From an uncultured candidate division WWE3 bacterium (GTDB lineage: Bacteria > Patescibacteriota > WWE3 > UBA101185 > UBA10185), in the NCBI GenBank assembly GCA_938004185.1, contig CALKWN010000065.1:633943-697942 (forward strand): 64,000 nucleotides of DNA, written 5' to 3'. Under the pieces are notes generated by a model. That model did not search any database. It had not been told where the DNA came from and saw nothing but the letters and a program-made list of their open reading frames with translations. Both the position numbers and the translations under genes were made by a program. This document shows, piece after piece, positions 3,332 through 58,127 of the stretch. Position 1 is the stretch's first letter. The number at the start of each line of letters is the position of its first letter.

Positions 3332-3730
3332 TCAAAAAAACAGCCTGTACCAAAGATACCAGCTGGGGTCACTTTTGTCTTCAGCCGGTTCATTAACTTT
3401 TTCGTCTGCGGCTGACTCGACCTCGCCTCCCTCAATAACATACACTTTTTCACCCGGTTTTATCATGTTTAAGCTGTTGCGAGCGCTTTCTTCCACATAT
3501 TCCGACGTCTTTTTATACTCTATTCTCTTCAAAATCTCATCCCTCTCCAAAAGGAGGGCCTGTTCCTTTTCTTTAGCCTCTTCGAGCCTCCTCTTACTTC
3601 CTAAAACGTCGATTGTTGATTTTATAATATTAGCGGATGTAATAACCAGAATAATTGATAAAAACACCCTTCCCCGGTTGCCTTTTCTAAACATTAAAAA
3701 CATGGTAGTTAAATAATTGACACTTGGCAA
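3332..3730 (-). CDS. Septum formation initiator (FtsB/DivIC-like) cell division protein
   Basis: N-terminal TM segment, coiled-coil stretch 'RRLEEAKEKEQALLLERDEILKRIE', then 'ARNSLNMIKPGEKVYVI', which resembles the FtsB/DivIC C-terminal signature. The true start is probably an internal Met. Confidence 0.55.
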   Translation of the reverse strand: MPSVNYLTTMFLMFRKGNRGRVFLSIILVITSANIIKSTIDVLGSKRRLEEAKEKEQALLLERDEILKRIEYKKTSEYVEESARNSLNMIKPGEKVYVIEGGEVESAADEKVNEPAEDKSDPSWYLWYRLFF

Positions 3731-6001: not shown

Positions 6002-6033
6002 GACGAGAGCTCTGCCAATTGAGCTAATCACCC
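5958..6033 (-). tRNA. tRNA-Ile (anticodon TAT)
   Basis: Minus strand: GGGTGAT-TA-GCTC-AATTGGC-AGAGC-T-CTCGT-CTTATAC-ACGAG...GGTTCGAGCCC...ATCACCC-A-CCA. The anticodon loop gives UAU. Confidence 0.7.
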
Positions 6034-11699: not shown

Positions 11700-12254
11700 G
11701 TGAACAAAAAATATGTTTTTACGGGGGCTGTTGCTCTGGTAACGATAATTTACTTAGCACTCGTTATTCATTACAAAAAGTACGAAAATGAGTGGTTCGG
11801 AATAAACATATTGCTAATATCGGGTTTGTTTGCCGGTATTACAATATTCATTTTCACCAAACTGCGCTGGTTTCAGCACGGTGGCCCCACATCTTACAAA
11901 ATGCTGGCAATACCGGTGGCCGGGCTGATCCTGTCGGTCTTTCTGGGACTGCATTACACGGAACAACCCGCAATTGTTGTAAGACAAAGTGATTACCAAT
12001 ACAGCTATGCGTTGTCGAGAACCGGCTATATGTTTAGCAACCTAAACATCGGGAGTGTGTCTGATTCTGACAGCAGTGTCGATATAGATTTCGACGATGC
12101 GGAAGGGGAAGCTGTCGCTTACCTGTTTCTAATCATCTTGGTCGTGGTACTGGTGGTCGGAAGTGCTTTCATACCTCACTTTTGGGTTGCCTCTTGTGCC
12201 ATACTGCTTGCGGTAATGGGAATAATGACATATAGAGAATACCTATTGGAGTAA
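11700..12254 (+). CDS. Membrane protein, unknown function
   Basis: 184 aa with 5-6 TM helices. RBS present. No recognisable motif. Confidence 0.4.
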   Translation: MNKKYVFTGAVALVTIIYLALVIHYKKYENEWFGINILLISGLFAGITIFIFTKLRWFQHGGPTSYKMLAIPVAGLILSVFLGLHYTEQPAIVVRQSDYQYSYALSRTGYMFSNLNIGSVSDSDSSVDIDFDDAEGEAVAYLFLIILVVVLVVGSAFIPHFWVASCAILLAVMGIMTYREYLLE

Positions 12255-13718: not shown

Positions 13719-13816
13719 GTAACAATACACGGACATTTTGGCGTTTTTCCTTGTGTCACCACAGCGTTAGAATGTTGAAGGACGGGGGTTGGCGTGTTAA
13801 TATTTCAATGTTTCAT

Positions 13817-13891
13817 TCCCCTGTAGCTCAAGGGTAGAGCGTCCGACTGTTAATCGGCAGGTTGGTGGTTCGAATCCACCCGGGGGAGCCA
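13817..13891 (+). tRNA. tRNA-Asn (anticodon GTT)
   Basis: TCCCCTG-TA-GCTC-AAGGGTA-GAGC-G-TCCGA-CTGTTAA-TCGGC-AGGTT-GGTGG-TTCGAAT-CCACC-CGGGGGA-G-CCA. Confidence 0.85.
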
Positions 13892-15391
13892 ATTAGACCT
13901 TATACGAACCAAATCTCGCGATACTAAAGCCTCAAACTCGGGTACGAACTCAAAACTAGTGATTATTCGCTCTTTTTCCAGGAATGCTTTTGATATGAAA
14001 AAGCGTAAAAACTGCTTTCTTTGTTGCTTATTCATTGCGTCATAAAGGTTTCCGATATGTCTCAAGCCGTTGATTATTTTCTCTATTTCGGAGTCTTTTA
14101 GGTTAGTAGATGGCTTATCCAAGTCTTTTATCTGTGCCTCCACCTGTTTTAGCTCTTCTTTTAGAGGTTTATATCTTTCCTTGAGTCTATCTATGTCCAC
14201 TAACTCGTCACCAGAAAACATCTTGTCCTCAATAACTCTCATTTTCTTGTCTAAAGCGTCTTTTCTGATTTTTAATACCTTAATCTGTGCGGGAACACCC
14301 GAGCCCTGCTCACTTTTAACCTCGTATAAAACACCTCTAAGCTCAGCAAGAGCCTCCTCAGTAAATACTGTTCCATTAAAGAAGTCTGCAATCTTATCAT
14401 CAGCTGTTTCAAGTGGAACATAAGTCCTAGAACAGCTATGGCATCGATAATAATTGCCTTTATCGTGGTATTCTCCAAACATTTGCCTGCCACACTTCAA
14501 GCAATGGGCATATCCTGACAGGAGGGTTACATATTTTCTATCTCTATGAGCACCTTTATTCTTTTTCTCAAACATAAGCAATGATTTGGCATACCAATCA
14601 AAGGATATGATTGGTTCATGTGCCGCTTTTTCATATACTACCCCATCATATAGTAGCCCTCCAGAGTAAAGTATATTTTTTAGGATATTTGTGACTGTGT
14701 TTTTGTAAACTTTTCCACCGGACTCATTCCTAAAACCCCTTTCATGTAACATTTCTGCTATCCTATGGACGGAATAATTACCTGACAACCACAGCTCATA
14801 AGCCATTACAATAAAATGCTTCCTCTCGGGGTCTGGGTATATCGGGGAATCTTTTTTATAGGAGTTTAAGTAACCAATTGGGCTTTTTCCTGGTTTTAAC
14901 CCTCTCTGAGCCAGAGAAAGCATAATCCTCTTTGTTTTCTTGCCTGTCCTTCTAGATTCAAGTTGGTTTACAGCCGCAACAATCACATCTAAAAACTCAC
15001 CTTCATCTGTATCACCATAATACCCATCTAGTGGAATCAGTTTTATTTTTCTTTTTTTAAGAAAAGCTTTAATCGCTAAATGGTCAGAGACATTTCTGGC
15101 TAATCTACTAGAATCCTGTACTAGTACAATGTCTACGGACTCAGCATGCTCATCACAATAATCAAGTAGTTCTTCCATATCAGGTCTGTCTAAATCTCTC
15201 GCACTCTTTCCGGAATCTTCAAATGTTTTGACAATAGAAATGTTATTTTGCTTTACAAAGTTTTGAAAAAGCTCGTCTTGTACATTCAAACTATGCCCAG
15301 TAAGAGCCTGCCGTGTAGTAGAAACTCTTTTATAGCATATAGCTTTTAATATTGTTCCTGTCTTTGGTTTCTGTTCTTCTAATCCGTACAT
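13850..15391 (-). mobile_element. Large serine recombinase (integrase) gene; its 3' end overlaps tRNA-Asn
   Basis: 513 aa. N-terminal resolvase catalytic domain 'ICYKRVSTTRQALTGHSL...IVLVQDSSRLARN', recombinase domain, Cys-rich zinc ribbon 'CLKCGRQ...CHSC', C-terminal coiled coil. The last ~14 codons are encoded by the complement of the tRNA. Confidence 0.85.
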
Positions 15392-15394
15392 TTT

Positions 15395-16297
15395 TTATTT
15401 TCCTATTCTTTCTTTAAGAATCCTACTTATAATACCGTTCAAGTAAGCGGGCTTATCATCTATTTTCTTACCACTAGAAATATCCTCTCGTAGCTCACCA
15501 ATCGCTTTTTCCAACACCCAAAACTGACCATCTCTTATAAGCGAGAGATACCTATCCATACACTTTTCACCTACTTCCAGAGCAATCTGATGCGATACAA
15601 ACTCTTCATGTCTGTTCGGTTTATAACTATCGGTTGAGTTTCTACACTTATACTCCGAGCTTTCTCTCCCCTTATTTCCCCCTTTATAAGACACCGATGT
15701 ATCGGTATTCTTAATCTCATGATAGTGTTCGGTATCATTATTATACCCTCTGTATTTCCTTTTGGCATCAACTAAATCATTGCTTTTTACGACACCGTTA
15801 TCGTGGTTTTTTGACCTCTGTTTTTCTTCATCAACCTCTACATTAACCTCTGATTTAGTAACGCTTTCTATAGGGGCTAGAGCCTCTTCTATAGGGTCAG
15901 TAAAATAATGTTCTATACCGATGTATTTGTCGTCAGGACTCTTAAAATCACCGAAGCGAACCTCGAAGGAACCTATCCTGCCGGAACGAGCTTCGTAGTA
16001 TATATACTTCTTTTTTTTCAGGGATAAGAGTAACTGATTAACATAATTGACTGATACTGAACTCTTTGAGCCTTCTGAACCAAAAACATCATCTCTAAGT
16101 GACTGAAGATGCACGGATGCTATGCCGTATGGGTTACATTGCAACCTTGCATGGCAATAGAGAAGATATTCCTTCCTAGATAAAATACCGTTTTTGTAAT
16201 CACTAGCTATCTTTCGTGGAAAGGGTATCCAATTAGAGGGCATTAAGTTTTTTGTATCCTTATTTTTTTCGTTCATATAGTGACTTATCAAATACAC
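15395..16297 (-). CDS. Hypothetical protein (island cargo; possible winged-helix/replication-associated)
   Basis: 300 aa. Directly upstream of and co-oriented with the recombinase. Low-complexity Lys/Asn-rich middle. No firm motif. Confidence 0.4.
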   Translation of the reverse strand: MYLISHYMNEKNKDTKNLMPSNWIPFPRKIASDYKNGILSRKEYLLYCHARLQCNPYGIASVHLQSLRDDVFGSEGSKSSVSVNYVNQLLLSLKKKKYIYYEARSGRIGSFEVRFGDFKSPDDKYIGIEHYFTDPIEEALAPIESVTKSEVNVEVDEEKQRSKNHDNGVVKSNDLVDAKRKYRGYNNDTEHYHEIKNTDTSVSYKGGNKGRESSEYKCRNSTDSYKPNRHEEFVSHQIALEVGEKCMDRYLSLIRDGQFWVLEKAIGELREDISSGKKIDDKPAYLNGIISRILKERIGK

Positions 16298-16413
16298 CTT
16301 CTTTTTGAAGACTAATCAAAAAGTTAGATAATTGTTTCAAATAAAAAGCCATAGCGTTTTCATCAACTATATGGGGCTTAATATTCAACTGTGTAATTAA
16401 ACTTTTTTTCATT

Positions 16414-16447
16414 TTGAAATAAAAAACCGCCTTCGGGGAAAGGCGGT
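16414..16447 (-). terminator. Rho-independent terminator (minus strand) downstream of the 16590-17552 gene
   Basis: 8-bp stem accgcctt/aaggcggt with loop cgggga, followed on the minus strand by TTTTTTATTT. Confidence 0.5.
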
Positions 16448-16589
16448 TAAATCCTTTGGTGTAAATATGAGAATAGAACTCATACCCCCGAACACCTTTG
16501 AAGTATTGGCTTCTACCGTTAACTTACAACAAAGGTATAGAAGGCAAAATATACATCAGCAGTAAACCCGGATGTCGTATAAATAAGGG

Positions 16590-17552
16590 CTATTTTCTCT
16601 TTTTGTTAGATGGGATGTCTTTTGCAAACCTTGTAAAACGCAACTTGGCTTGAGAAAAGTCCGAAGAGCCGGGACCTACAGAGGAGTACGGCTCGAATGC
16701 ATTTGGATATTTATTGATTATCTCAAATGCTTCTTTGTGGCTCATATTTTTATATTCTGTAAGATAGTAAGAATAGGCGTCTCGTAGAAGGTTTGAGCGT
16801 CTATCATATAAAGTTTTTCTATGCCCGGAAAGTGATTTTTGAAGCTTTTTTAATTCTTCTCGAAACTCTTTCGTCTTTAATATATCGATATTTGTATCGC
16901 CAAATATTTTAAGCTCGATGTATTGGTTTTTCTCACCCATAGAAATATAAATCCTGCGTTTCTTAAGTGCGTCTATTGCTTTATTAAACTTTAGTAAGTC
17001 GGGTGCCAAATCTTCGTCTAAATACTCAGACTCAATATTCTCAGCAGTGCCTAGAGGCATAACACTGTTTATATCGGGATAATCGTCGTATAAGGTGATG
17101 CTTTTAATCCGGCGTGTATACCTAGAATCTAAATGATAATCACGCAACAATGTCTCAAGAAACTCATCAGATAAATAGTTCTTCTCAAACTTTTGCAGTT
17201 TAATGTACTCCTCTTTAATACTCATAAAGTTTGCGGTTGCCGACTTTTCCAAACGGATAATATTTCCAAAAGTGTCAATATCATAAGAACTACCTTCCGG
17301 CATATCCTCATTAAAACCATCTTTATTGTTGAATTCTAAAACATGAGACAAAAGTTTCTTAGAATAGCCTTCCTTATAAAGTTCTTTTAAGAGACTACCT
17401 GCATTTATATTGTGAGCTTTTCTAATTCCATCCACATCTTTCCTAAAATCCTTGTTAATCGTAATTGCAAAAAGCAGCAATACATCCGTGTTACTTTGTA
17501 ACTTCCATTGTACAAATAATTCCCTATCTCTAGGGTTAGCCAATACTTCCAT
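16590..17552 (-). CDS. Hypothetical protein (island cargo)
   Basis: 320 aa with clean codon usage and no recognisable motif. Confidence 0.4.
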   Translation of the reverse strand: MEVLANPRDRELFVQWKLQSNTDVLLLFAITINKDFRKDVDGIRKAHNINAGSLLKELYKEGYSKKLLSHVLEFNNKDGFNEDMPEGSSYDIDTFGNIIRLEKSATANFMSIKEEYIKLQKFEKNYLSDEFLETLLRDYHLDSRYTRRIKSITLYDDYPDINSVMPLGTAENIESEYLDEDLAPDLLKFNKAIDALKKRRIYISMGEKNQYIELKIFGDTNIDILKTKEFREELKKLQKSLSGHRKTLYDRRSNLLRDAYSYYLTEYKNMSHKEAFEIINKYPNAFEPYSSVGPGSSDFSQAKLRFTRFAKDIPSNKKRK

Positions 17553-17761
17553 AACTACATTTTACAACTTATATAGTAACGGGTGAGGGTACGGGGAGCT
17601 CCTATTTGACCCTGCCCCTTAGTTTGTAATTAAGCTACACCCATACATTCCAGGAAGAAACTTGTCGATAATAGGATACATAGTACTAATTGGGCTTAAT
17701 CTATTCATATTTATACAAAATATATGGCTCAAAATAGGGTATTAAGTTATAATCCAATAGT

Positions 17762-17848
17762 AAAACCTAGCCGCGAACTAGTTAATGGTTAAAAACCTTG
17801 AGTCCAAGAAGGGGCTACCTTTCTGAAGGACTCAAGCTTCGCGGCTAG
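17762..17848. repeat. Long nested inverted repeat (12-bp outer plus 9-bp inner arms)
   Basis: cctagccgcgaa...cttgagtcc...ggactcaag...ttcgcggctagg. It lies ~25 bp upstream of the ORF starting at 17874. Confidence 0.5.
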
Positions 17849-17873
17849 GAACTAAAGAAGGTAGTCCCTTTTT

Positions 17874-18269
17874 ATGTTCTTATATAAAAACCAAAACGAA
17901 TCGTATAGAAAAGGTGCAAGGGTAGTAGAAGTAGTCTATTGGGTTGCTACATTAATTGTTTTCGCAAGTTTGTTTAACGAAGAATATAGTACTACTGATA
18001 AAGTAGTGGGTGGAATGGGAGCAGTGGTTCTATTTTTGACTATATACATGAGGCACTCGTTGAATAAACTTGAAACTATTTGTATAGAGTACGAAACTAG
18101 ATATAAACACATTGCAGAAAGTTTAAGAAAACTAGATATAAAAAATAAAATCTTAGCTTCAACTAGTAAGGAAGAAAAGGAAAAATATTCAATTGAGATA
18201 AAAACCATCTTGGAAACGATAGACGATAAAAATAATATCGGAGACTGGAGTTTTTATAAACATGCGTAA
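17874..18269 (+). CDS. Small membrane protein, unknown function
   Basis: 131 aa, 2 TM helices. Confidence 0.35.
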   Translation: MFLYKNQNESYRKGARVVEVVYWVATLIVFASLFNEEYSTTDKVVGGMGAVVLFLTIYMRHSLNKLETICIEYETRYKHIAESLRKLDIKNKILASTSKEEKEKYSIEIKTILETIDDKNNIGDWSFYKHA

Positions 18270-18705
18270 TAAACTACTTGTATTAATAGCGTGCGTGTTT
18301 TTGTTGTCAATTGGGGCATGTCTGTACATACAAAATGAATCCGAATCCCAAAAAGAGAATAACAATACTTTAACTAACACAATTGACGAAGAAGAATCAT
18401 ATGTAAATGCGATGAAGAATATTTTTCAAGAATATAGTAAAGGCAGTACAAAAAGTATAACTTCCACAGCTTTGGAGGGGTTGGGAAACGAAAACTCAGG
18501 CATACAATCACGACCGAAAGAATATTACACTAACACTTTTGAAGTGCTGAACATCAAAAATGGTTTGGCAGGTGGAAAAGAGATGAACATAGTATTTGAA
18601 AAGCATCCCAAAGAAATATTTTGGGTTTGGATTTATAAACTTGCAGACGGAACTTACCAAATAAAAGGTTTTCAATTAAATACCCTAACTGACAATAATA
18701 AATAG
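18262..18705 (+). CDS. Putative lipoprotein/secreted protein
   Basis: 147 aa. Signal peptide with a lipobox-like 'LSIGAC'. Confidence 0.4.
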   Translation: MRNKLLVLIACVFLLSIGACLYIQNESESQKENNNTLTNTIDEEESYVNAMKNIFQEYSKGSTKSITSTALEGLGNENSGIQSRPKEYYTNTFEVLNIKNGLAGGKEMNIVFEKHPKEIFWVWIYKLADGTYQIKGFQLNTLTDNNK

Positions 18706-19485
18706 TTGTTTTCACGCAAAGTATTAAATCAATGCTATCATTTTTATATGACAGTCCTTTATGAAGAAGTGCAACTACTAAGCTTTATTTCAAACGAAAA
18801 ACTGTTTCATGCTGTAGAAAAAATAATTACGAAAGCAAAAAAGTCTAAGCGTGAAGACAAGGACATTTATAAAAATGCTATTGACCCGTTTTCTGCACTT
18901 TTTGATGCTTCTTTAGCTGGGATTTCATTGAAAGACTGGTTAGAAGTAGAAAGAACAAGACAAGTTCAAAAATCTTTACAGAACACCATCGGGGAGTTTC
19001 ATGAAGAAATAATTGGCTCAATGCCTGGTTGGGAAAGACTGTTAGTGGGACATATCATTGATGTTGTTAATCCTGAGAAAAAGATTATTGCGGAACTAAA
19101 AAACAAATGGAATACCACTAAAGGTTCCGACAAAGTAGTTTTATACAATAGCTTAAGCATGGAATTAAAATCCGAACAATACAGTGGTTATACTGGGTAC
19201 TATGTAGAAGTAATCCCTGAGAAAGGTAAAACTTACGACAAACCTTTCATGCCTTCTGACCATACTAAACACATACGAAAACCTGAGAATCAAAGAATAC
19301 GAATTATAGATGGAAAAAGCTTCTACGCCTTAGCTTCTGGAGACCCGCTCGCACTACAAAAACTATATAAGATATTGCCCAGAGTAATTGCAGAAATAGA
19401 AAATAGTCCAAGCATTGCAGATTACAGCTCAGAAGAACTGTTTCATATACTGTTTGGTAAGGCATATTCTCCAGACTACAGGTAA
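18706..19485 (+). CDS. Putative Type II restriction endonuclease (PD-(D/E)XK-like) of an R-M pair
   Basis: Immediately upstream of and co-oriented with the C5-MTase. Candidate catalytic block 'GHIIDVVNPEKKIIAELKNK' fits a D...E.K arrangement. TTG start at 18706, or ATG at 18748. Confidence 0.45.
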   Translation: MFSRKVLNQCYHFYMTVLYEEVQLLSFISNEKLFHAVEKIITKAKKSKREDKDIYKNAIDPFSALFDASLAGISLKDWLEVERTRQVQKSLQNTIGEFHEEIIGSMPGWERLLVGHIIDVVNPEKKIIAELKNKWNTTKGSDKVVLYNSLSMELKSEQYSGYTGYYVEVIPEKGKTYDKPFMPSDHTKHIRKPENQRIRIIDGKSFYALASGDPLALQKLYKILPRVIAEIENSPSIADYSSEELFHILFGKAYSPDYR

Positions 19486-19495
19486 CCCTTGCATA

Positions 19496-20791
19496 ATGCA
19501 TTGGTTACTGATAACATATTTAAATATGCCTAATGACCTCTTTACTGTTACAGAAACAGCAGAAAAAATCGGTGTTTCAGCAGATACAATAAGACGCTGG
19601 GAAAAAATGGGTCTGATTAAATCAACACGCTCTGAGCAGAACTACAGACTTTTCAGTTTGTCCGAAGTTGAGAGAGTAAAACAGAAACAAGAAGGCACTC
19701 ACAGTCCAATTGGATTTAAAATCCTAAAGAACAATAAAAAGCACCCCTTTACAACAATCGAACTTTTCACAGGAGCCGGTGGAACTGCATTAGGTTTAGA
19801 AAATGCAGGATTCACAAATACTCTAATGGTCGAGATTGATAAGAACGCAGTCCAAACACTTAGAGTCAACAGACCGAAGTGGAATGTTATTCAAGATGAC
19901 ATAAAAAATGTATCGTTTATTGGAAAAGAAGTAGATGTGGTGGAGGGTGGTTTCCCCTGTCAATCTTTCAGCTTTGCTGGGAAAAAAATGGGATTTGAAG
20001 ACACACGAGGTACCTTGTTTTTTGAGTTTGCAAGATGTGTTAAAGAAACACGCCCGAAAGTAGCGGTTGGAGAGAATGTTAGAGGATTACTAAAACACGA
20101 TGACGGAAAAACTTTAAAAGTTATGGTCGATGTACTATCTGAACTCGGATACAAAGTGGCGTATAAAATATTAAGGGCACAATACCTGGATGTACCACAG
20201 AAAAGGGAAAGATTGATTATAATCGGTGTAAGAAATGACCTTGATATACCTATCCTGTTTCCTAAAGAAAAGGACTATTTTATTTCCATACAAGAAGCTT
20301 TAAAGGATGTTCCGGCATCGGAGGGTCAAAAATATCCTGAAAAGAAACGAAAGGTATTAGAACTAGTGCCTCCTGGGGGATACTGGAGAGACCTGCCTCT
20401 GGATATACAAAAAGACTACATGGGAGCCAGTTTTTATATGGGTGGGGGTAAAACAGGAATGGCTAGAAGACTGTCCTGGAATGAACCAAGTTTAACATTA
20501 ACCTGTGCCCCTGCTCAAAAACAAACCGAAAGGTGTCACCCAGAGGAAACAAGACCACTTTCCTATCGCGAATATGCCAGAATACAGACTTTTCCTGATG
20601 AATGGGATTTTGCTGGCTCATTAGCTTCAAAATACAAACAAATAGGAAACGCTGTTCCCGTAAATCTCGGTTATCACATAGGTAAAGCACTAATAGCAAT
20701 GCTTGAAAAAGACCCGAACCGAGAAGACTTTGTTGAGGTTAAGGAACCAGCTACAAGTAAAAACTTAAACATGCCGCTTTTCCCTAATTAA
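19496..20791 (+). CDS. DNA (cytosine-5)-methyltransferase with N-terminal MerR-type HTH
   Basis: Motif I 'FTGAGGTALGLENAGF', motif IV 'GGFPCQSFSFAGK', motif VI 'ENVRGLL'. N-terminal 'LFTVTETAEKIGVSADTIRRWEKMGLI' is a MerR-like HTH. Start at 19496 or 19526. Confidence 0.85.
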   Translation: MHWLLITYLNMPNDLFTVTETAEKIGVSADTIRRWEKMGLIKSTRSEQNYRLFSLSEVERVKQKQEGTHSPIGFKILKNNKKHPFTTIELFTGAGGTALGLENAGFTNTLMVEIDKNAVQTLRVNRPKWNVIQDDIKNVSFIGKEVDVVEGGFPCQSFSFAGKKMGFEDTRGTLFFEFARCVKETRPKVAVGENVRGLLKHDDGKTLKVMVDVLSELGYKVAYKILRAQYLDVPQKRERLIIIGVRNDLDIPILFPKEKDYFISIQEALKDVPASEGQKYPEKKRKVLELVPPGGYWRDLPLDIQKDYMGASFYMGGGKTGMARRLSWNEPSLTLTCAPAQKQTERCHPEETRPLSYREYARIQTFPDEWDFAGSLASKYKQIGNAVPVNLGYHIGKALIAMLEKDPNREDFVEVKEPATSKNLNMPLFPN

Positions 20792-20820
20792 AGTATGTAT
20801 AATATTAGTAGGTATAGAAA

Positions 20821-21432
20821 ATGAAAACACCATATATTTTTGACTATAAAAAAGCAACACAAGCAATAAACTACTTAGCTAATAAATATCCGTCAGGAAC
20901 AGTAGGCAAAATGAAGGTTATAAAACTGATATGGGCTGCCGATAGATATCATTTGAGAAAATATGGTAGACCAATAATTGGCGACGACTATGTTGCCATG
21001 CAATATGGTCCTGTCGGGTCATCAACCAAAGACATAGCCGGTAAAAATAGCTTCCTTGATGAAAAAGAAAAAAGATACGCGAACTATTATTTAGATGGAC
21101 CGATTGGTAATAATATTAAGTCACTAAGAAAGCCCGATTTGGATGTGTTTTCGGAAACAGACTTAGAAGCTTTAGACTTTTCTTATACAAACTTTGGTAA
21201 TAAAACACCGACTGAACTAGTAGACATTTCTCATCAATATCCGGAATGGAAAAAGTTTAAAGTCTATTTCGACTCAAAGGCTACAACTCGAGAACCTATG
21301 TCATACATGGACTTTTTTAAAGACCCGGAAACAACTCAAAAAAACGATGTTTTCAAAGAAGAAGATGAACTTGTAAAACTTAGTGAATCAATCTTTACCG
21401 AAAATAATACTTCTGCCCAGCAATGGACTTAA
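20821..21432 (+). CDS. Panacea-domain (DUF4065, SocA-like) antitoxin-type protein
   Basis: 'MKVIKLIWAADRYHLRKYGRPIIGDDYVAMQYGPVGSSTKDI' fits the DUF4065/Panacea core pattern (K-L-hK-L-hY-AD-HL-YG-P-G-Y-A-GPV). Confidence 0.7.
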   Translation: MKTPYIFDYKKATQAINYLANKYPSGTVGKMKVIKLIWAADRYHLRKYGRPIIGDDYVAMQYGPVGSSTKDIAGKNSFLDEKEKRYANYYLDGPIGNNIKSLRKPDLDVFSETDLEALDFSYTNFGNKTPTELVDISHQYPEWKKFKVYFDSKATTREPMSYMDFFKDPETTQKNDVFKEEDELVKLSESIFTENNTSAQQWT

Positions 21433-21436
21433 GTTG

Positions 21437-21892
21437 ATGGGTACAAGAGGTTTTACTGTGAAAATCCCCAAACAGATAGCAATAACCGTATCTCTCGAAC
21501 AAGGTACCGTGTATCTCTTTTCTGAAGAAAGTTTCGATACAACTACACCTCATTTCTTCATTATCTTAAACAAAAACCCTGTCGAAGACCCCTTTTTAAT
21601 AATGACCTGTGCTACTTCTCAAGTTGAAAAAAGGTATGAGTGGGTCAAGAAAAATGGCTTGGATTTAGAAACTATCGTTCCTATAGATGAAAGTAGCTAT
21701 AAGTTTCTGAACAGAGAAACTGTTGTCGATTGCAACCAATTACTTCAAAGGACAAAGGAAGTCTTAATGGACAAGTACGACAGTGGAAACCTAAAACTCA
21801 AAGGTAAAGTAACTCAAAAAGACCTTAATCGGATTATTAATGGGGTAAGAAAAAGTAAACTTGTAAGCAAGTCCCACAAAAACCTACTTTAA
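21437..21892 (+). CDS. Unknown protein translationally coupled to the Panacea-domain gene (candidate toxin partner)
   Basis: ATG lies 4 nt after the upstream stop. 151 aa with no recognisable domain. Confidence 0.35.
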   Translation: MGTRGFTVKIPKQIAITVSLEQGTVYLFSEESFDTTTPHFFIILNKNPVEDPFLIMTCATSQVEKRYEWVKKNGLDLETIVPIDESSYKFLNRETVVDCNQLLQRTKEVLMDKYDSGNLKLKGKVTQKDLNRIINGVRKSKLVSKSHKNLL

Positions 21893-22054
21893 GAAAAAAC
21901 TCTTTAAAGTAAAACGGGCAATAAACTTTACACATAAGCGACTACAGAGAGGGAAAAGGTCATTGACACTCTCCATCATTGAGTGCTATAAGTTTGGGCA
22001 CAAGTGAAAAAAAACAAACACTCACTGGCACAGTGAGTCCAGCCCAACACACAG

Positions 22055-22086
22055 ACCGCCAGTTTTAAATGAGGCGGTATTTTTGT
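22055..22086 (+). terminator. Candidate rho-independent terminator
   Basis: accgcc(22055-22060)...ggcggt(22073-22078) followed by atttttg. The loop is rather large (12 nt). Confidence 0.35.
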
Positions 22087-22214
22087 AACTGCAGGCACAT
22101 GAACAACTGAAGATTGAAAGGATACGCTGGTAGGTAGCATCTCCTCAAGACGACAGAACTTTACAGCACCAGGTTCGTTCGTACTTTTACGAACCTTTGA
22201 GAGGAGGTGTTTTT

Positions 22215-22343
22215 ATGTTTAATCAAAAGGGTAAAAAAAGTAATCCCGCCACCGAAATAGTAGAGGGATTCTTTTTTGACGAAGCGATAGGTCTATTTTT
22301 ACCCAATAGACTGTTGAAACTACTTGTGAGACCGACAGCATAA
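22215..22343 (+). CDS. Small ORF (42 aa) with strong RBS, unknown function
   Basis: gaggagg sits 8 nt upstream of the ATG. Product: MFNQKGKKSNPATEIVEGFFFDEAIGLFLPNRLLKLLVRPTA. Preceded by a 7-bp hairpin gttcgta/tacgaac. Confidence 0.3.
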   Translation: MFNQKGKKSNPATEIVEGFFFDEAIGLFLPNRLLKLLVRPTA

Positions 22344-22629
22344 CATCTGGTAAGTAACACAGCAAGCCAGCGTATCCTTACAGTCTTTAATAAATAATAT
22401 CACTAAATAAAACCGGACAAAACAAAAACATATGCTTTCTACCTAACTAGACTAAGACAGGTATCAAACTTCGTATAAAAGCAACTATAGGGAGCCAATA
22501 CTTTATATATTTACAAAGTACCCCCTAAACTTGCTACAAGACCCCATACATGCTATTACTACCTCAAATACAAGAAAAAACCATCCGGATTCGGTTCTTT
22601 CTTATAATTCCAAGCGAAGGAGGTACAAA

Positions 22630-22779
22630 ATGTTCTTAGCACCCGAGGATTACAACGTGATGCCGGCGGAGATGCGTGAAGGAAACTCGACATGCCCTCA
22701 GGGTTCGCAATGCATGTGCCAATGTCCCTGCAATTGTCGAAACACTACTGAGGTAAACCCTTCCACACAGGTTCGGTAA
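22630..22779 (+). CDS. Cys-rich RiPP precursor-like peptide (SCIFF/ranthipeptide-like, six Cys)
   Basis: GGAGG RBS 8 nt upstream. 49 aa: MFLAPEDYNVMPAEMREGNSTCPQGSQCMCQCPCNCRNTTEVNPSTQVR. About 100 bp upstream of the rSAM-SPASM gene. Confidence 0.55.
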   Translation: MFLAPEDYNVMPAEMREGNSTCPQGSQCMCQCPCNCRNTTEVNPSTQVR

Positions 22780-22882
22780 GCATTACGGGGAGAGGACTAC
22801 GATAATAAACCGGATAAATTATTCGTAGTTCTCTCTTTTGCACTTTAACTTTCTAATACCCAATACTAATTTGGAGGTCACC

Positions 22883-24217
22883 ATGAACTTAGCATTATCT
22901 TCCTATACACACCTGCTAAAAGTAGACGAAGCAACGTATGCTCTTTTAAACGCTTTGTGGCTTCGTGTAGTCTTTCTGCAGGAACCGTACGTGTCCGTTA
23001 TGCAAGAATCTTTGAAACACGGGCAATTACCACAAGCAACACCCAACGATATTGAAGAGAAAACGTGGGAACTCTTCAAAGATTTACTTAAAAAAGAAAT
23101 GTTTCTGGACCCGGTTGAGGACATTATTCACCTACAAAAAGTGCGTGAAGAAATGGAACAAGAACACATTTCCATAATGTATTTGATACTTTCAAATAAT
23201 TGCAACTTGCGCTGCGAATATTGCTATCTACATGAATTGCTTACACCAAAAGTCCAAAATGCACCGATGTATATGAGCGTTGAAACAATGAACAAAGCAA
23301 TTGATTATTTTGCTGACTTGGTTAACGGAGTCATTGCTCACCCCCAAATTGTACTTTATGGAGGCGAACCTACGCTTAATCCAAACATGGAATACCTAAT
23401 AAAACTGGTCTATGAAAAAATCCTGGGGGTCAATATATCTCTCGTAACAAATGGGACACTCATAACAAAGGACTTAGCAGAAATTCTTGCTAAATATCAC
23501 ATAAATGTAGGTGTCTCCATTGACGGGCCACAGAAAATACACGATACAAATCGCAAGTTCCACAATGGGCGCGGCTCTTTTGAAGAAGCCCTTAAGGGTT
23601 ACAAAACCCTGTTGGAAAAAGGCGCTCTGGCGGGGATATCCTGCACAATTACAATGCAAAACGCACCGACTCTGGTGGATACAATGCACTGGCTATTGGA
23701 TGAACAGGGAGTCCTAGGCATAGATTTCAATTTGTTAATCGATGAAGAATCCTCGGAATACCCGGAAATAGCCACCAAAGGACTCATGGAATGCTATGAG
23801 CTGGCAAAACAACGCGGTTTGCCACTGGAACGTGTGCTAAGAAGAGTACAACCATTCTCTGAGGGACGATTGAACTTACACGACTGCGGCGGCACAGGAA
23901 ACCAAATCGTAATAACCACAGATGGTAGAGTGGGAATTTGTCAGGGGTTCCTAAATTCGGGCGATTTTTTCTTTCCCTTGGAAGAAATTAAGGACCCGAA
24001 TACACACCCACTTTGGGCTGAATGGCGGAAACGCTCACCAATTAACATTGATGGGTGCCATTCTTGTCCTGCCTTTGGTATTTGCGGTGGCGGATGTTTC
24101 TACGGTCCTTACACCCGACACGGCTCCATAATGAAACTAGATCCGGTACATTGTACGCACGTGCTAGCAACGCTGGATGTTATTCTCAAAGATTTATGGA
24201 AAAAGCAGAGAGGATAA
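22883..24217 (+). CDS. Radical SAM enzyme with C-terminal SPASM domain (RiPP maturase-like)
   Basis: rSAM cluster motif 'CNLRCEYCY' (CxxxCxxC). SPASM signature 'CHSCPAFGICGGGC' (Cx2Cx5Cx3C), plus extra Cys 'HDCGGTGN...GICQGF'. ~90 aa N-terminal extension could be a precursor-recognition (RRE) domain. Confidence 0.85.
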   Translation: MNLALSSYTHLLKVDEATYALLNALWLRVVFLQEPYVSVMQESLKHGQLPQATPNDIEEKTWELFKDLLKKEMFLDPVEDIIHLQKVREEMEQEHISIMYLILSNNCNLRCEYCYLHELLTPKVQNAPMYMSVETMNKAIDYFADLVNGVIAHPQIVLYGGEPTLNPNMEYLIKLVYEKILGVNISLVTNGTLITKDLAEILAKYHINVGVSIDGPQKIHDTNRKFHNGRGSFEEALKGYKTLLEKGALAGISCTITMQNAPTLVDTMHWLLDEQGVLGIDFNLLIDEESSEYPEIATKGLMECYELAKQRGLPLERVLRRVQPFSEGRLNLHDCGGTGNQIVITTDGRVGICQGFLNSGDFFFPLEEIKDPNTHPLWAEWRKRSPINIDGCHSCPAFGICGGGCFYGPYTRHGSIMKLDPVHCTHVLATLDVILKDLWKKQRG

Positions 24218-24270
24218 CTAAAAAGAATTGTACTGCTCTACATACCCCACGGGGCAGTACAATTCTCACA

Positions 24271-25008
24271 CTAACTATCCTTAGAACTCTCTTTAAACCA
24301 TTTAATTCCATTGCTCAAATATTCATTGAAGGTTTCTCTATTTATAAAAAGGTCTTTTAATAAATCTTTTGCTTTTTGTAAGTGTGGATAATTATACAGA
24401 TAAGAATCATAGCCTCTGAGGTGTCTGGGCCATAATTCGTTTAATGTGGTATCTAGTCCCAAGATTGCGTTCGAGGTTATTTCATTCAGTCCCCAATAAT
24501 AAAAGTTTTCGTCTTTTTCTGCCTCTTCTCCAAACCTTTCATACAAAATAGACCATATGTGCGATATTAATATTTCATGTGCTGTAATACGAGCATGTTC
24601 CCCAGTAGGAACAAAAAGACCTCTTAAAACCTTATCTTCTCCAAAACTACTAACGCCCGTATTAAAAGGACTTAAGACAACAAAGAACTTATCATGGAAC
24701 CAATTGTGCGAAGTTATCTCTGGAACCCTTTTAGAAAAAATGGTGTGTATTCCTGACCAGGTATGTGCATAACCTTTAAGTGCTTGTTTAAATTCTTGCT
24801 CCAGTGGTTGATATCTTTTTGAAACATAATTTTCGGCATACTGTTGAACCATGGAGTAATCGGCTTCACCGGCAAGAGTATTAGCCACTTCCACTTCTAT
24901 ACCCATGCTTTTAGCGCGCGTTTCTCTTTCATTTGGGGCGCAATAAAACAACATAGACCAAGTTATTCCGGCATCATATTTCGAATCTTTAATAAACTCT
25001 ACCTGCAT
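24271..25008 (-). CDS. Hypothetical protein convergent with the rSAM gene
   Basis: 245 aa. 'AHEILISH' is HEx4H, not a canonical HExxH. No confident family. Confidence 0.35.
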   Translation of the reverse strand: MQVEFIKDSKYDAGITWSMLFYCAPNERETRAKSMGIEVEVANTLAGEADYSMVQQYAENYVSKRYQPLEQEFKQALKGYAHTWSGIHTIFSKRVPEITSHNWFHDKFFVVLSPFNTGVSSFGEDKVLRGLFVPTGEHARITAHEILISHIWSILYERFGEEAEKDENFYYWGLNEITSNAILGLDTTLNELWPRHLRGYDSYLYNYPHLQKAKDLLKDLFINRETFNEYLSNGIKWFKESSKDS

Positions 25009-25155
25009 AATGTTATTTTATCACTCAAACCCAGTAATAAACTGGATTGCAAATATTAACGAAATGGTACTAGATATCGTTTTTTTTTTATAAAGAAGTA
25101 TCACCGAACAAAAAGGTTATATTTCTAATAAAGTTCTGAATGGGGAGCCACACAT

Positions 25156-25194
25156 ACACTATAGGTTGACAAAATGGGGTGGGAGGGGTAGAAT
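25156..25194 (+). promoter_or_regulatory. sigma70-type promoter with conserved upstream ACACTATAGG element
   Basis: ACACTATAGG (25156-25165), then TTGACA (25166-25171), a 17-nt spacer, then TAGAAT (25189-25194). RBS aaggag and an ATG at 25258 follow. Confidence 0.6.
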
Positions 25195-25257
25195 TATCCC
25201 TTAGTCAAGCAACCGCGTAAATTTCTATGCGGATTAATCCAAAATAAGGAGATTGAA

Positions 25258-25824
25258 ATGACCGTTTTGTTTGGTTCCGTTAAGTTCTATAGCGAAAAGG
25301 GGTTTGGCTTTATCAGCCTTGATAAACCCCAAGATTTATTTTTCCATATCAAAAACTACTCAAAACCCGTTGCAACTGAGCGTGGTGTAGTTTTTGAACG
25401 CGTATATAAAAACTCTGTTCGTTACCCTCAGCCGGGGGATTCCGTAGCATTTGAAATGACTATGGGGAACAGGGGTTTTGTCGCAAACCCTTGGTGTTAT
25501 ACCGAGGATTACCATAAAGCTTTGGAAATCTTCGAAAAATGGCCGCAACCACAACGGTACAGAGTCGTTACGGTCCACGATCAGATCCACATAAGTGGGT
25601 TTGTTGGCGAACCTCACGTAACGTGGGGCGGTGAAAAAGGAGGTACGTTTGAGGAACTCTGTAGAACGTATCCCCGGGATCGTTATGACAAATTACAGTA
25701 TTTTGGTCATGACGACTTCAATGCAACACACTACATCCAGCAATTAAAGGATGGAAAGTGGGTTAACATCGAAGACCCGAGACCGTATGTGGAAGATCGG
25801 TATAGATCCAGACGTCGCTGGTAA
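25258..25824 (+). CDS. Protein with N-terminal cold-shock-like (CSD/OB) domain
   Basis: 'GSVKFYSEKGFGFIS' resembles the CspA RNP1-like region. The C-terminal ~120 aa are of unknown function. Confidence 0.5.
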   Translation: MTVLFGSVKFYSEKGFGFISLDKPQDLFFHIKNYSKPVATERGVVFERVYKNSVRYPQPGDSVAFEMTMGNRGFVANPWCYTEDYHKALEIFEKWPQPQRYRVVTVHDQIHISGFVGEPHVTWGGEKGGTFEELCRTYPRDRYDKLQYFGHDDFNATHYIQQLKDGKWVNIEDPRPYVEDRYRSRRRW

Positions 25825-57355: not shown

Positions 57356-57361
57356 AAGCTA

Positions 57362-57697: not shown

Positions 57698-57754
57698 CAG
57701 GGGCCCGGGCCTACCGGGCCCACTTAACTACTAACTAAAGCGGTGGCCCCAAGG

Positions 57755-58087: not shown

Positions 58088-58127
58088 AATTAATATTTAG
58101 CTTCTACACCTCCCTCGAAAAAACCTT

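What the first reader, a model, noticed from the sequence alone, without database searches (positions are those of the whole stretch)
13817..25165. Putative ~11-kb integrated element at tRNA-Asn carrying a serine recombinase, an R-M pair, a Panacea antitoxin module and the RiPP locus
A 513-aa large serine recombinase gene (13850-15391, minus strand) ends inside tRNA-Asn: its last ~14 codons are the complement of the tRNA 3' half. An integrase gene abutting and overlapping a tRNA 3' end is the classic layout of a tRNA-inserted island.

To the right lie genes with the flavour of mobile cargo:
- two hypotheticals co-oriented with the recombinase;
- small membrane/lipoprotein genes;
- a putative PD-(D/E)XK restriction endonuclease plus a C5-MTase;
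- a DUF4065/Panacea gene plus a coupled unknown gene;
- the rSAM RiPP locus.

Two short matches to the tRNA-Asn 3' terminus (cccgGGGGAGCCAatta, 13878-13895) occur downstream. 'gGGAGCCAATa' lies at 22490-22500, just upstream of the RiPP locus. 'GGGGAGCCA' lies at 25142-25150, immediately before the conserved host-type promoter at 25156. A specific 9-mer is expected about 0.5 times by chance in 64 kb on both strands, so two hits at plausible module boundaries are suggestive. They could mark attR-like junctions of one island (13.9-25.1 kb) or of two tandem elements (13.9-22.5 kb and 22.5-25.1 kb).

By eye the 15-22 kb segment is more AT-rich than the flanking housekeeping DNA.

Large serine recombinases do not usually target tRNAs, so the exact mechanism is uncertain.
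Basis: partly seen in the sequence, partly recalled or inferred. Interest (0 to 1): 0.7.

Follow-up and report, generated by a model that had tools for sequence, protein, structure and literature searches.

The report
Serine-integrase island array at tRNA-Asn
An 8.6-kb mobile element driven by a large serine recombinase has inserted into the 3' end of the tRNA-Asn gene of a Patescibacteria (CPR) bacterium, next to an older integrase-less peptide-biosynthesis (RiPP) cassette left by an earlier insertion; serine integrases are rarely seen at tRNA genes.

Summary

**Layout**
- tRNA-Asn lies at 13817-13891. The 513-aa large serine recombinase (LSR) gene, 13850-15391 on the minus strand, overlaps it by 42 nt.
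- E1 (about 13892-22499, 8.6 kb) is a bona fide integrative element.

**Evidence for E1**
- A related metagenome locus has tRNA-Asn, an orthologous recombinase element and an attR. Its right flank is identical to the sequence directly after tRNA-Asn in two empty-site contigs.
- The window's 22468-22497 site matches that attR with 2 mismatches in 30 nt.
- The common core is GGGGAGCCA, the tRNA 3' end. The reconstructed attP is about 50 bp with inverted arms TTCGTATAA/TTATACGAA.
- All seven distinct contexts examined lie at or downstream of a tRNA-Asn, each with different cargo.
- E1's 4-kb core is 89% nt identical to a copy in a host whose suf genes are only 64-71% identical.
- E1 has 36.5% GC against 40-41% for the host.

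**The RiPP module**
- The RiPP module (22500-25150) is outside E1.
- It ends in a second, diverged family attR at 25123-25150.
- In another genome it sits directly at tRNA-Asn with no recombinase.

No excision data exist. How the element transfers between cells is unknown. I rate it a new variant of a known kind.

The parts
13817..13891 (+). tRNA-Asn(GTT), the integration target. It is intact after insertion. Its last about 6-9 nt are now supplied by, or shared with, the element.
   Evidence: ARAGORN and Rfam at 67 bits. The same tRNA carries family elements in L006, L007, L009, L010 and L020.
13866..13915 (+). attL. It consists of the B arm (tRNA T-arm and acceptor stem), the common core GGGGAGCCA (13883-13891; identity with attR1 extends over GGGAGCCAAT, 13884-13893) and the P' arm containing TTATACGAA (13900-13908). 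The P' arm also encodes the conserved recombinase C-terminus ...DLVRIRSNWLP.
13850..15391 (-). Large serine recombinase (integrase), 513 aa. The catalytic Ser24 sits in YKRVSTTRQ. The last 13 codons and the stop are the complement of the tRNA.
   Evidence: Pfam PF00239 at 3.2e-28, PF07508 at 1.3e-08, and PF13408 at 22 bits (below its cutoff). PHROG 95 integrase at 9e-81. Tight clade of 10 clusters at 52-100% identity.
15395..16297 (-). Conserved element core gene of 293-300 aa. It has a winged-helix N-domain, a disordered linker and a helical C-domain. Its role is unknown; it could be a regulator, an RDF or a replication factor.
   Evidence: Only 8 homologues in 5.8e9 proteins. In every context examined it lies directly upstream of the family recombinase.
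16590..17552 (-). Second conserved element core gene, 320 aa, a family-restricted ORFan.
   Evidence: 9 cluster representatives in 1.84e9 proteins. Present in L006, L007, L020 and L021. No Pfam, PHROG or PADLOC hit.
17874..18705 (+). Two small cargo genes. One encodes a 131-aa membrane-like protein. The other encodes a 147-aa protein with a lipoprotein-type signal.
   Evidence: ORFs. The 147-aa protein has a 33% identical homologue in the L006 element. Its only PHROG matches are weak and cover the N-terminal region only.
18706..20791 (+). Type II restriction-modification cargo: an Eco47II-family REase (18706/18748-19485) and a C5 cytosine MTase with an N-terminal MerR-type HTH (19415/19496-20791).
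   Evidence: Pfam. PADLOC REase_II at 9.6e-58 and MTase_II at 3.5e-128.
20821..21892 (+). Panacea (SocA-like) antitoxin-domain gene (20821-21432) plus a coupled 151/169-aa ORF with no detectable family, which is a putative toxin partner.
   Evidence: PF13274 at 2e-22 and phrog_1281. The partner has no hits.
22457..22499 (+). attR1, the true right end of the recombinase-bearing element E1. It consists of the P arm acaggtatcaaaCTTCGTATAAAagcaactata plus the core GGGAGCCAAT.
   Evidence: 86% identity over 44 nt to the L006 attR, whose junction is proven by the empty sites L003 and L004. The L006 attR 30-mer hits only here, with 2 mismatches and a chance expectation of 0.00. The L020 attR is near-identical.
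22500..25122 (.). E2, an integrase-less RiPP cassette. It holds a Cys-rich 49-aa precursor (22630-22779, +), an rSAM maturase (22883-24217, +) and a conserved 245-aa partner (24271-25008, -). Its GC is host-like (40.1%).
   Evidence: The homologous cassette lies directly at tRNA-Asn in L014 with no recombinase.
25123..25150 (+). attR2, a second and diverged family attR: TTCTAATAAAGTTCTGAAT plus the core GGGGAGCCA. It marks the distal end of the array.
   Evidence: 17 of 21 P-arm positions match the L009 attR. It aligns with L014 attRa and attRb. The L009 attR 28-mer hits only here, with 3 mismatches and a chance expectation of 0.00.
25151..25824 (+). Host flank (B' side): a sigma-70-like TTGACA-N17-TAGAAT sequence, read by eye, followed by a 188-aa cold-shock-domain gene (25258-25824).
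   Evidence: Sequence. PF00313. Composition returns to host values here.

Best explanation
The region is a tandem array of two site-specifically integrated units at the 3' end of tRNA-Asn in a Patescibacteria (Yanofskybacteria-like) genome.

**Unit E1 (about 13892-22499, 8.6 kb)**
- E1 is an intact integrative element. Its large serine recombinase recombines a roughly 50-bp attP with the tRNA-Asn 3' end.
- The attP has arms CTTCGTATAAA...TTATACGAAC, and its dyad is centred on the GGGA of the core.
- Strand exchange occurs inside the shared core GGGGAGCCA, which is the 3' strand of the acceptor stem plus the discriminator base and CCA. The most likely crossover dinucleotide is GG or GA. The tRNA is therefore regenerated.
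- attP lies across the 3' end of the recombinase gene. Integration therefore swaps the enzyme's last 13 codons. The integrated form ends ...NWLPRVDSNHQPAD, and the predicted excised form ends ...NWLPIVAFIRSLIPVLV.
- E1 carries a conserved 4-kb core (recombinase plus two family-specific ORFans) and exchangeable cargo. Here the cargo is an Eco47II-type R-M system and a Panacea toxin-antitoxin-like pair.

**Unit E2 (22500-25150)**
- E2 is an integrase-less RiPP cassette. It is bounded distally by an older, diverged attR of the same family.
- It is most likely the right-end remnant of an earlier integration.
- E1 later inserted at the tRNA-proximal junction.

**Shown and inferred**
- Shown: the element ends, the core, the empty and occupied sites, the family-wide target, horizontal spread and the tandem architecture.
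- Inferred: the exact crossover dinucleotide, present-day activity, the order of events, the excision factor, and the means of cell-to-cell transfer.
For: 1. **Empty and occupied sites.**
   - L006 has tRNA-Asn, then a recombinase 76.7% identical in protein, then 10.4 kb of element, then ...ACTTCGTATAAACGCAACTATGGGGAGCCA|TAATAGATTTTCAGGTTCAG...
   - L003 and L004 have tRNA-Asn ...GGGGAGCCA|TAATAGATTTTCAGGTTCAG... with no element.
2. **The window's attR1.** It is homologous to the L006 attR and is unique in the window.
3. **Family-wide target.**
   - In L006/L010-13, L007/L008, L009 and L020/L021 the recombinase 3' end abuts tRNA-Asn beside the DUF1189 and suf genes. In L023 the element lies 9.3 kb downstream of tRNA-Asn, behind another block.
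   - Each has unrelated cargo and a conserved P arm plus core at the far end.
   - 9 of 10 clade proteins end in the tRNA-encoded tail.
4. **attP symmetry.** All four reconstructed attPs place the best dyad on the same base of the core; in L007 it ties with two other positions.
5. **Horizontal transfer.** Window 13815-17895 is 89% nt identical to L020. The flanking suf genes are 64-71% identical, and the tRNA sequences differ.
6. **Composition.** GC is 36.5% against 40-41%, and the tetranucleotide z score is up to 2.9.
7. **E2.**
   - attR2 matches the L009, L014a and L014b P arms.
   - L014 reads tRNA-Asn core, RiPP cassette, attR, small cassette, attR, with no recombinase.
   - L007 shows a second, unrelated LSR (24% identity) in tandem at the same core.
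8. **Active-site motifs.** The catalytic motif YxRVSxxxQ and the Cys pairs of the zinc ribbon are invariant across the clade.
Against: - No empty site was recovered for the window's own strain. All 7 contigs carrying the identical recombinase have the same layout.
- No excised circle or attP junction was found. The pattern and protein scans of IMG/VR that looked for it were negative.
- The left edge of E2 has no convincing P' arm, so E2 may not be mobilisable at all.
- Canonical serine integrases do not recombine attP with attL or attR. Tandem insertion therefore needs a tolerance for variable B' arms that is inferred, not shown.
- The Zn-ribbon Pfam hit is below the gathering cutoff.
- No recombination directionality factor, replication gene or transfer gene could be identified.
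Confidence: 0.85

Rival explanations
1. The whole 13.9-25.15 kb block is one composite element. It moves as a unit by recombination between attL and the distal attR2. The 22.49-kb site is an internal relic from accretion, followed by cis-mobilisation.
For: - attR2 keeps a perfect 9-bp core and a recognisable P arm.
- Accretion followed by cis-mobilisation of integrase-less units (CIMEs) is documented for tyrosine-recombinase elements (PMC5704250).
- The L006 element contains an internal degenerate P arm about 0.9 kb before its functional attR. This suggests that family elements do capture such modules.
Against: - The 22.49-kb P arm is the cognate type. It is near-identical to the attRs of L020 and L006, whose recombinases are the closest relatives.
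- The attR2 P arm matches E1's own arm at only about 10 of 21 positions by hand comparison. It belongs to the L009/L014 subtype.
- E2 has host-like GC.
- E2 exists at tRNA-Asn without any recombinase in L014.
Confidence: 0.1
2. The block is a fixed, no longer mobile relic. The recombinase is inactive or domesticated. The short repeats mark ancient events only.
For: - No excision products or strain-level polymorphism were recovered for this genome.
- No RDF was identified.
- CPR genomes are streamlined and often retain decayed elements (inference).
Against: - The ORF is full length, with all catalytic and zinc-ribbon residues conserved.
- The core module is 89% nt identical to L020 across hosts whose housekeeping genes are only 64-71% identical.
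- attL and attR1 arms are intact and match those of active-looking relatives.
- An empty/occupied polymorphism exists in the L006 lineage, with flanks identical over the stretch compared.
Confidence: 0.12
3. E1 is a small prophage or phage satellite rather than a plasmid-like or mobilisable island.
For: - Its integrase matches PHROG 95.
- A 32%-identical LSR (P0012) sits at tRNA-His in a prophage-like element that carries a Terminase_2 gene.
- Satellites of 7-15 kb with defence cargo are common (general knowledge).
Against: - No capsid, terminase, portal, primase or packaging gene is detectable in E1 or in any family member.
- No family member was found in 2.9 million IMG/VR contigs.
- The two conserved core genes are ORFans.
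Confidence: 0.15

Closest known systems
Serine-integrase prophages and islands with a short common core (Bxb1, phiRv1, A118, phiC31, SCCmec/Ccr)
   Same: - The domain architecture is the same: resolvase, recombinase and zinc-ribbon domains.
- The attP is short (about 50 bp) with imperfect inverted arms and lies next to or within the int gene.
- There is no long direct repeat.
- A core of a few bp is shared by attP and attB. That Bxb1 has about 8 bp and phiRv1 about 12 bp rests on my own knowledge.
   Different: - The target is the 3' end of a tRNA gene, and the target is regenerated. Known serine integrases typically insert within, and usually disrupt, protein-coding genes (PMC5704250, PMC10083194).
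- The host is a CPR bacterium.
- attP overlaps the integrase's own stop region, so the C-terminal tail changes on integration.
tRNA-targeting genomic islands, IMEs and prophages with tyrosine integrases (Islander/TIGER-type IGEs)
   Same: - The int gene abuts the tRNA 3' end.
- The tRNA is restored by element sequence.
- The core is duplicated at both ends.
- Tandem arrays form at the same tRNA.
- Cargo includes defence genes.
   Different: - The recombinase family is unrelated: serine, not tyrosine.
- The duplicated core is only 9-10 bp, rather than the longer tRNA-derived identity block typical of tyrosine systems (my own knowledge).
- PMC7192596 found t(m)RNA use by S-Ints in only 14 of 297 cases and called it previously unreported and in need of proof.
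CIMEs and tandem accretion (ICESt1/ICESt3 model; PMC5704250)
   Same: - An integrase-less unit flanked by att-type sites lies in tandem with an integrase-bearing element at the same target.
- Several such relic sites occur in series, in L014 and L006.
   Different: - The known cases use tyrosine recombinases.
- Here the relic keeps a clear attR-type arm, but no convincing P' arm was found at its proximal end.
- Mobilisation is untested.

Membership tests
Large serine recombinase (serine integrase) | N-terminal resolvase catalytic domain with a serine nucleophile in the Y-x-R-V-S-x-x-x-Q motif | tested here: met
   PF00239 at 3.2e-28 over residues 17-164. Y20, R22, V23, S24 and Q28 are invariant in the 10-member clade.
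Large serine recombinase (serine integrase) | C-terminal recombinase domain plus a zinc-ribbon domain (with embedded coiled coil) | tested here: inconclusive
   PF07508 at 1.3e-08 passes. PF13408 scores 22.2 bits, below its 25.3 cutoff. The four Cys residues C297, C300, C317 and C320 are invariant. The coiled coil was not explicitly tested.
Large serine recombinase (serine integrase) | Short attP and attB with inverted half-sites around a central crossover, and hybrid attL and attR after integration | tested here: met
   The reconstructed attPs of four elements place the best dyad on the same core base; in L007 this dyad ties with two other positions. The arms are TTCGTATAA and TTATACGAA. attL, attR and attB are resolved by L006 against L003/L004.
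Large serine recombinase (serine integrase) | Catalysis of unidirectional attP x attB recombination, with RDF-dependent excision | not testable with these tools
   This needs a recombination assay. No RDF candidate could be assigned.
tRNA-inserted integrative genomic island | Integrase gene at the island end abutting an intact tRNA 3' end | tested here: met
   The same layout is seen in the family loci L006/L010-13, L007/L008, L009 and L020/L021. In L023 the element instead lies 9.3 kb distal to tRNA-Asn.
tRNA-inserted integrative genomic island | Sporadic presence, with a precise empty site in relatives | tested here: met
   L003 and L004 (empty) against L006 (occupied) have flanks identical over the stretch compared. 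L005 is unoccupied. L014 lacks E1. No empty site was found for the window strain itself.
tRNA-inserted integrative genomic island | Compositional deviation and evidence of horizontal transfer | tested here: met
   GC is 36.5% against 40-41%, with a tetranucleotide z score up to 2.9. The core module is 89% nt identical to L020, against 64-71% for host genes.
tRNA-inserted integrative genomic island | Observed excision (circular attP form and restored attB) | not testable with these tools
   No read data are available. IMG/VR scans for attP or P' junctions were negative.
CIME / tandem accretion array | Integrase-less unit bounded by att-type sites of the same system, adjacent to an integrase-bearing element | tested here: met
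   E2 lies between the attR1 core and attR2. It contains no recombinase. The arrangement is the same in L014.
CIME / tandem accretion array | Both att sites of the integrase-less unit functional, so that it can be cis- or trans-mobilised | tested here: inconclusive
   The proximal side shows no convincing P' arm on hand alignment with the sequences. The distal P arm is diverged from E1's own. Mobilisation is untested.
Prophage / phage satellite | Capsid, terminase, portal or other virion or packaging genes, or presence in viral contigs | tested here: not met
   PHROGs hits cover only the integrase, the Panacea protein (a family of unknown function) and a weak signal-peptide match. No IMG/VR relatives were found.
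ICE / IME | Relaxase, oriT, coupling protein or T4SS genes | tested here: not met
   No such Pfam domains occur in E1 or in the gene tables of family loci. Divergent and unrecognised versions cannot be excluded.
Type II restriction-modification system (cargo) | Adjacent REase and cognate-type MTase | tested here: met
   PF09553 Eco47II at 2.6e-55 and PF00145 at 5.5e-83. PADLOC REase_II and MTase_II. Specificity was not tested.
PanA (Panacea) toxin-antitoxin pair (cargo) | Panacea-domain antitoxin with an adjacent toxin gene | tested here: inconclusive
   The Panacea domain is clear (PF13274 at 2e-22). The overlapping 151/169-aa partner has no recognisable family.

The most novel reading that the evidence does not exclude
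In Patescibacteria the tRNA-Asn 3' end may act as an LSR-driven accretion platform.

- At least two unrelated LSR lineages use the same GGGGAGCCA core.
- Integrase-less cassettes, each ending in a P arm plus core, accumulate in series. Examples are the RiPP, DUF6326 and small-ORF modules in the window, L014 and L006.
- These cassettes may be shuffled or carried along by resident integrases, in an integron-like fashion.
- In addition, attP lies inside the integrase's own 3' end. The enzyme therefore has different C-terminal tails in the integrated and excised states. This could act as an integration-dependent switch of integrase stability or directionality. It would be analogous to the integration-dependent immunity of some mycobacteriophages.
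Probability: 0.15. Interest if true: 0.75.

Novelty: new variant of a known kind. Interest (0 to 1): 0.6.

Why it matters
Serine integrases are prized genome-engineering tools. They are thought to avoid tRNA genes. The only large survey that saw such cases (14 of 297) called them unproven (PMC7192596).

Here a whole LSR clade has base-resolved attB, attP, attL and attR sites in tRNA-Asn. There are natural empty and occupied sites, and clear horizontal spread between divergent hosts.

This matters for three reasons:
- It gives a directly testable attP/attB pair for a tRNA-targeting serine integrase.
- It defines one of the first precisely delimited integrative element families in CPR bacteria, which are uncultured and genetically intractable. 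The attB is a conserved tRNA, so the integrase is a candidate tool for them.
- It shows that defence cargo (R-M, Panacea) and a RiPP cassette are exchanged at this hotspot.

Tried and rejected
- **Long repeat of the tRNA 3' half.** A 29-mer search allowing up to 3 mismatches and a generic direct-repeat search found none. This is expected for a serine integrase.
- **GTDB species representatives.** The search with the flanking DUF1189 protein gave one relative at 39% identity (L002). It keeps the synteny of suf genes, DUF1189 gene and tRNA-Asn. It is too distant to show an empty site.
- **Exact look-up of the DUF1189 protein.** It is not on record.
- **IMG/VR scans.** The P arm plus core pattern gave one chance hit inside an unrelated ORF (L016). 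The core plus P' pattern and the recombinase protein gave nothing. There is therefore no evidence for a viral or excised form.
- **Rfam over 13-26 kb.** Only the tRNA was found. No ncRNA was detected in the 21.9-22.5 kb non-coding stretch.
- **Function of the 300-aa core protein.**
  - There were no Pfam or PDB sequence hits.
  - The AF2 model is modest (pLDDT 59).
  - Foldseek gave only generic winged-helix matches, with a best E of 0.027.
  - The afdb50 library was unavailable.
  - I considered a DnaD-like replication organiser, but it is not supported beyond the wHTH fold.
- **Function of the 320-aa core protein.** It is an ORFan.
- **Relic recombinase 3' end or P' arm at the left edge of the RiPP cassette.** Hand alignment and translation were unconvincing, so I make no claim.
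- **Other GGGAGCCA sites.** Those at 20422 (inside the MTase gene) and 43179 have no P-arm similarity. I treat them as chance.
- **P0011.** This LSR (34% identical) is not next to a tRNA.

Full report
**1. Checking the observation**

ARAGORN and Rfam place an intact tRNA-Asn(GTT) at 13817-13891 on the plus strand. The 513-aa ORF at 13850-15391 on the minus strand carries three domains. These are Resolvase (3.2e-28), Recombinase (1.3e-08) and a sub-threshold Zn_ribbon_recom domain. It also matches the PHROG 95 integrase family at 9e-81. Its last 13 codons and its stop codon are the complement of the tRNA 3' part...NWLPRVDSNHQPAD*.

The cargo annotations hold up:
- An Eco47II-family REase.
- A C5 MTase with an N-terminal MerR-type HTH.
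- A Panacea-domain protein with a coupled ORF of no detectable family.
- An rSAM enzyme downstream.

GGGGAGCCA occurs only at 13883-13891 and 25142-25150, against 0.17 expected by chance. GGGAGCCAAT at 22490-22499 repeats 13884-13893.

The segment is compositionally distinct. GC is 36.5% for 13892-22499, against 40.0% and 40.8% for the flanks. The tetranucleotide distance peaks at 15-19.5 kb with z of 2.3-2.9. No longer repeat of the tRNA exists.

**2. Organism**

The identical recombinase lies on a 649-kb metagenome contig, ERZ724101 NODE_1. The nearest named relatives are Candidatus Yanofskybacteria and other Patescibacteria MAGs. The block formed by the suf operon, the DUF1189 gene and tRNA-Asn is syntenic even in a relative whose DUF1189 protein is only 39% identical.

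**3. The decisive comparison**

A metagenome scan with the 3' 47 nt of the tRNA returned four loci.
- L006 has the DUF1189 gene, then tRNA-Asn, then an orthologous recombinase (76.7% identical in protein). Homologues of the 300-aa (52%) and 320-aa (32%) proteins follow, then unrelated cargo.
- L006 ends at ...ACTTCGTATAAACGCAACTATGGGGAGCCA|TAATAGATTTTCAGGTTCAGAATATCCC...
- L003 and L004 read tRNA-Asn ...GGGGAGCCA|TAATAGATTTTCAGGTTCAGAATATCCC..., with no element.

This is a base-resolved occupied and empty pair. The element runs from the tRNA 3' end to a site made of a conserved arm plus the 9-bp core GGGGAGCCA.

The window's 22468-22497 sequence, ACTTCGTATAAAAGCAACTATAGGGAGCCA, is the homologue of that attR. 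It matches at 86% over 44 nt. The L006 30-mer hits the window only there, with a chance expectation of 0.00. The recombinase-bearing element E1 therefore spans about 13892-22499, or 8.6 kb.

**4. Anatomy of the sites**

Joining the left side of attR1 to the right side of attL reconstructs the attP:

...acaggtatcaaaCTTCGTATAAaagcaactataGGGAGCCAATtagaccTTATACGAAccaaatc...

This is about 50 bp with 9-bp inverted arms. In all four reconstructed attPs (window, L006, L007, L009) the best dyad falls on the same base, the third G of GGGAGCCA; in L007 it ties with two other positions. The crossover dinucleotide is therefore probably GG or GA; this is an inference.

The core corresponds to the 3' strand of the acceptor stem, the discriminator base and the encoded CCA. 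Integration therefore regenerates the tRNA.

attP spans the recombinase stop region, so the predicted excised form ends ...NWLPIVAFIRSLIPVLV* rather than ...NWLPRVDSNHQPAD*. The P' arm also encodes the conserved C-terminal motif DLVRIxSNWLP. Nine of ten clade members end in the tRNA-encoded tail.

**5. A family with one target and exchangeable cargo**

The recombinase belongs to a tight clade of ten clusters at 52-100% identity. The next hit is only 34% identical. In L006/L010-13, L007/L008, L009 and L020/L021 the gene abuts tRNA-Asn. Each of these elements ends in a P arm plus core. L023 is the exception and is described in section 7.

| Locus | Cargo |
|---|---|
| L007 | ArsR-like regulator, thioredoxin-like protein, ArsP |
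| L009 | PIN domain, 2-hydroxyacid dehydrogenase |
| L010 | DUF2726 |
| L020 | SDH-type protease |
| Window | R-M system and Panacea pair |

The conserved parts are the left 4 kb and the roughly 45-nt right end. The left 4 kb holds the recombinase, a 293-300-aa protein and a protein of about 320 aa.

The two accessory proteins are family-restricted ORFans. The 300-aa protein has 8 homologues in 5.8e9 proteins. The 320-aa protein has 9 cluster representatives in 1.84e9. The 300-aa protein models as a winged-helix N-domain, a disordered linker and a helical C-domain. Foldseek gives only generic wHTH matches.

**6. Horizontal transfer**

Window 13815-17895 is 89% nt identical to the L020 element. 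The adjacent suf genes are 64-71% identical, and the two tRNA-Asn sequences differ outside GGTTCGAATCCAC.C.GGGGGAGCCA.

**7. The RiPP module is a separate, integrase-less unit**

The site at 25123-25150, TTCTAATAAAGTTCTGAATGGGGAGCCA, matches the P arm of the L009 attR at 17 of 21 positions, plus the core. It aligns with two further sites in L014. The L009 28-mer hits the window only there, with a chance expectation of 0.00.

L014 starts in a tRNA-Asn 3' end and runs directly into the homologous cassette. That cassette holds the precursor region, an rSAM 59% identical to the window's, and a 248-aa partner. Then comes an attR-type site, a 0.75-kb module (a 58-aa ORF and a DUF6326 gene) and a second attR-type site. 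There is no recombinase.

E2 has host-like GC of 40.1%.

The window is therefore a tandem array, in this order:
1. tRNA-Asn.
2. E1, which carries the integrase.
3. attR1.
4. The RiPP cassette.
5. attR2, which is diverged.
6. The host promoter and the cold-shock-domain gene.

Three other loci show that tandem and relic arrangements recur:
- L007 carries a second LSR of a different lineage (24% identity). Its 3' end spans the same core at the first element's attR.
- L006 has an internal degenerate P arm.
- L023 has a family element 9.3 kb distal to tRNA-Asn, behind another block. Its recombinase tail is correspondingly different.

**8. What it is not**

No virion, packaging, relaxase or T4SS genes are detectable. 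No relatives occur in IMG/VR. No Rfam family other than tRNA is present. The mode of intercellular transfer is unknown.

A more distant LSR, P0012 at 32% identity, overlaps tRNA-His in a prophage-like element. This hints that tRNA targeting may be broader in this part of the LSR tree.

**9. Comparison with what is known**

- **tRNA targeting.** tRNA 3' ends are the classic target of tyrosine integrases. IMEs with serine recombinases insert within, and disrupt, protein genes (PMC5704250).
- **TIGER/Islander survey.** It found t(m)RNA use by 44.5% of Y-Ints but only 14 of 297 S-Ints. [quoted passage not shown]
- **LSR att-site discovery study.** It does not mention tRNA targets (PMC10083194).
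- **Accretion.** Accretion and CIMEs are described for tyrosine systems (PMC5704250).
- **CPR literature.** My literature searches found no description of this family in CPR bacteria.

**10. Verdict**

Its interpretation is supported in the "two tandem elements" form.

The mechanism is a conventional one, LSR-mediated attP x attB recombination, used in an unusual setting. The target is a tRNA 3' end that is restored on integration. attP lies inside the integrase's own 3' end. The host is a CPR bacterium. Integrase-less cassettes accrete at the same site. I rate it a new variant of a known kind.

Activity, directionality control and the transfer route remain inferred.

Noticed in passing
L007:1734-3347 (+) and the core at about L007:3297-3304: A second large serine recombinase of 537 aa, only 24% identical to the window's, lies immediately beyond the first element's attR. 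Its 3' end spans the same GGGGAGCCA core. Two unrelated LSR lineages therefore appear to use the same tRNA-Asn-derived core in tandem.
   Followed up: partly
L018:6001-7497 / tRNA-His 7486-7561; L019 likewise: A 32%-identical LSR (P0012) overlaps the 3' end of tRNA-His. The element looks prophage-like, with Terminase_2, HTH, ADP-ribosylglycohydrolase and Macro domains. tRNA targeting may extend beyond the tRNA-Asn clade.
   Followed up: partly
L014:2652-2679 and 3399-3426: Two attR-type sites (P arm plus GGGGAGCCA) lie in series downstream of the RiPP cassette. They bracket a 0.75-kb module holding a 58-aa ORF and a DUF6326 gene. No recombinase is on the contig, so the arrangement is cassette-array-like.
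   Followed up: partly
L006:10129-10170 (= L010 about 2023): An internal P-arm relic, caggtatcaaacTTCGCATAAAATTCTGTATG, is followed by a degenerate core CGGGTGGCT. It lies about 0.9 kb before the functional attR, which suggests a captured module inside that element.
   Followed up: no
L023 (Ga0268387_1109506): tRNA-Asn 11992-12066, core at about 2709-2716: A family element (recombinase P0004, 68% identical) sits 9.3 kb distal to tRNA-Asn, behind an unrelated block that holds N6/N4 MTase, Mrr, DUF3800 and SDR genes. Its recombinase has a different, longer C-terminal tail because the ORF reads into non-tRNA DNA.
   Followed up: partly
window 19415/19496-20791: The C5 cytosine methyltransferase carries an N-terminal MerR-type HTH (PF00376/PF13411). 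This may be a built-in controller of the Eco47II-type R-M system.
   Followed up: no
window 21893-22456: About 560 nt at the right end of E1 has no convincing gene and no Rfam hit. Only a 42-aa ORF (22215-22343) and a 54-aa ORF are called. Only the last about 45 nt are conserved in related elements.
   Followed up: partly
window 57001-59500: This is the only other stretch of the window with a tetranucleotide deviation above z = 1.5 (z = 2.2; GC 42.6%). It was not examined.
   Followed up: no
L009:18696-21260: The SufB homologue of this relative is 854 aa and carries intein-splicing and LAGLIDADG domains, so the suf operon next to the hotspot contains an intein.
   Followed up: no
window 5958-6033 and 45985-46370: The window holds a tRNA-Ile with anticodon TAT, which is also present in the relatives L002 and L007. 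It also holds a tmRNA with the tag ADKDAFVGVPAMAAVAA.
   Followed up: no
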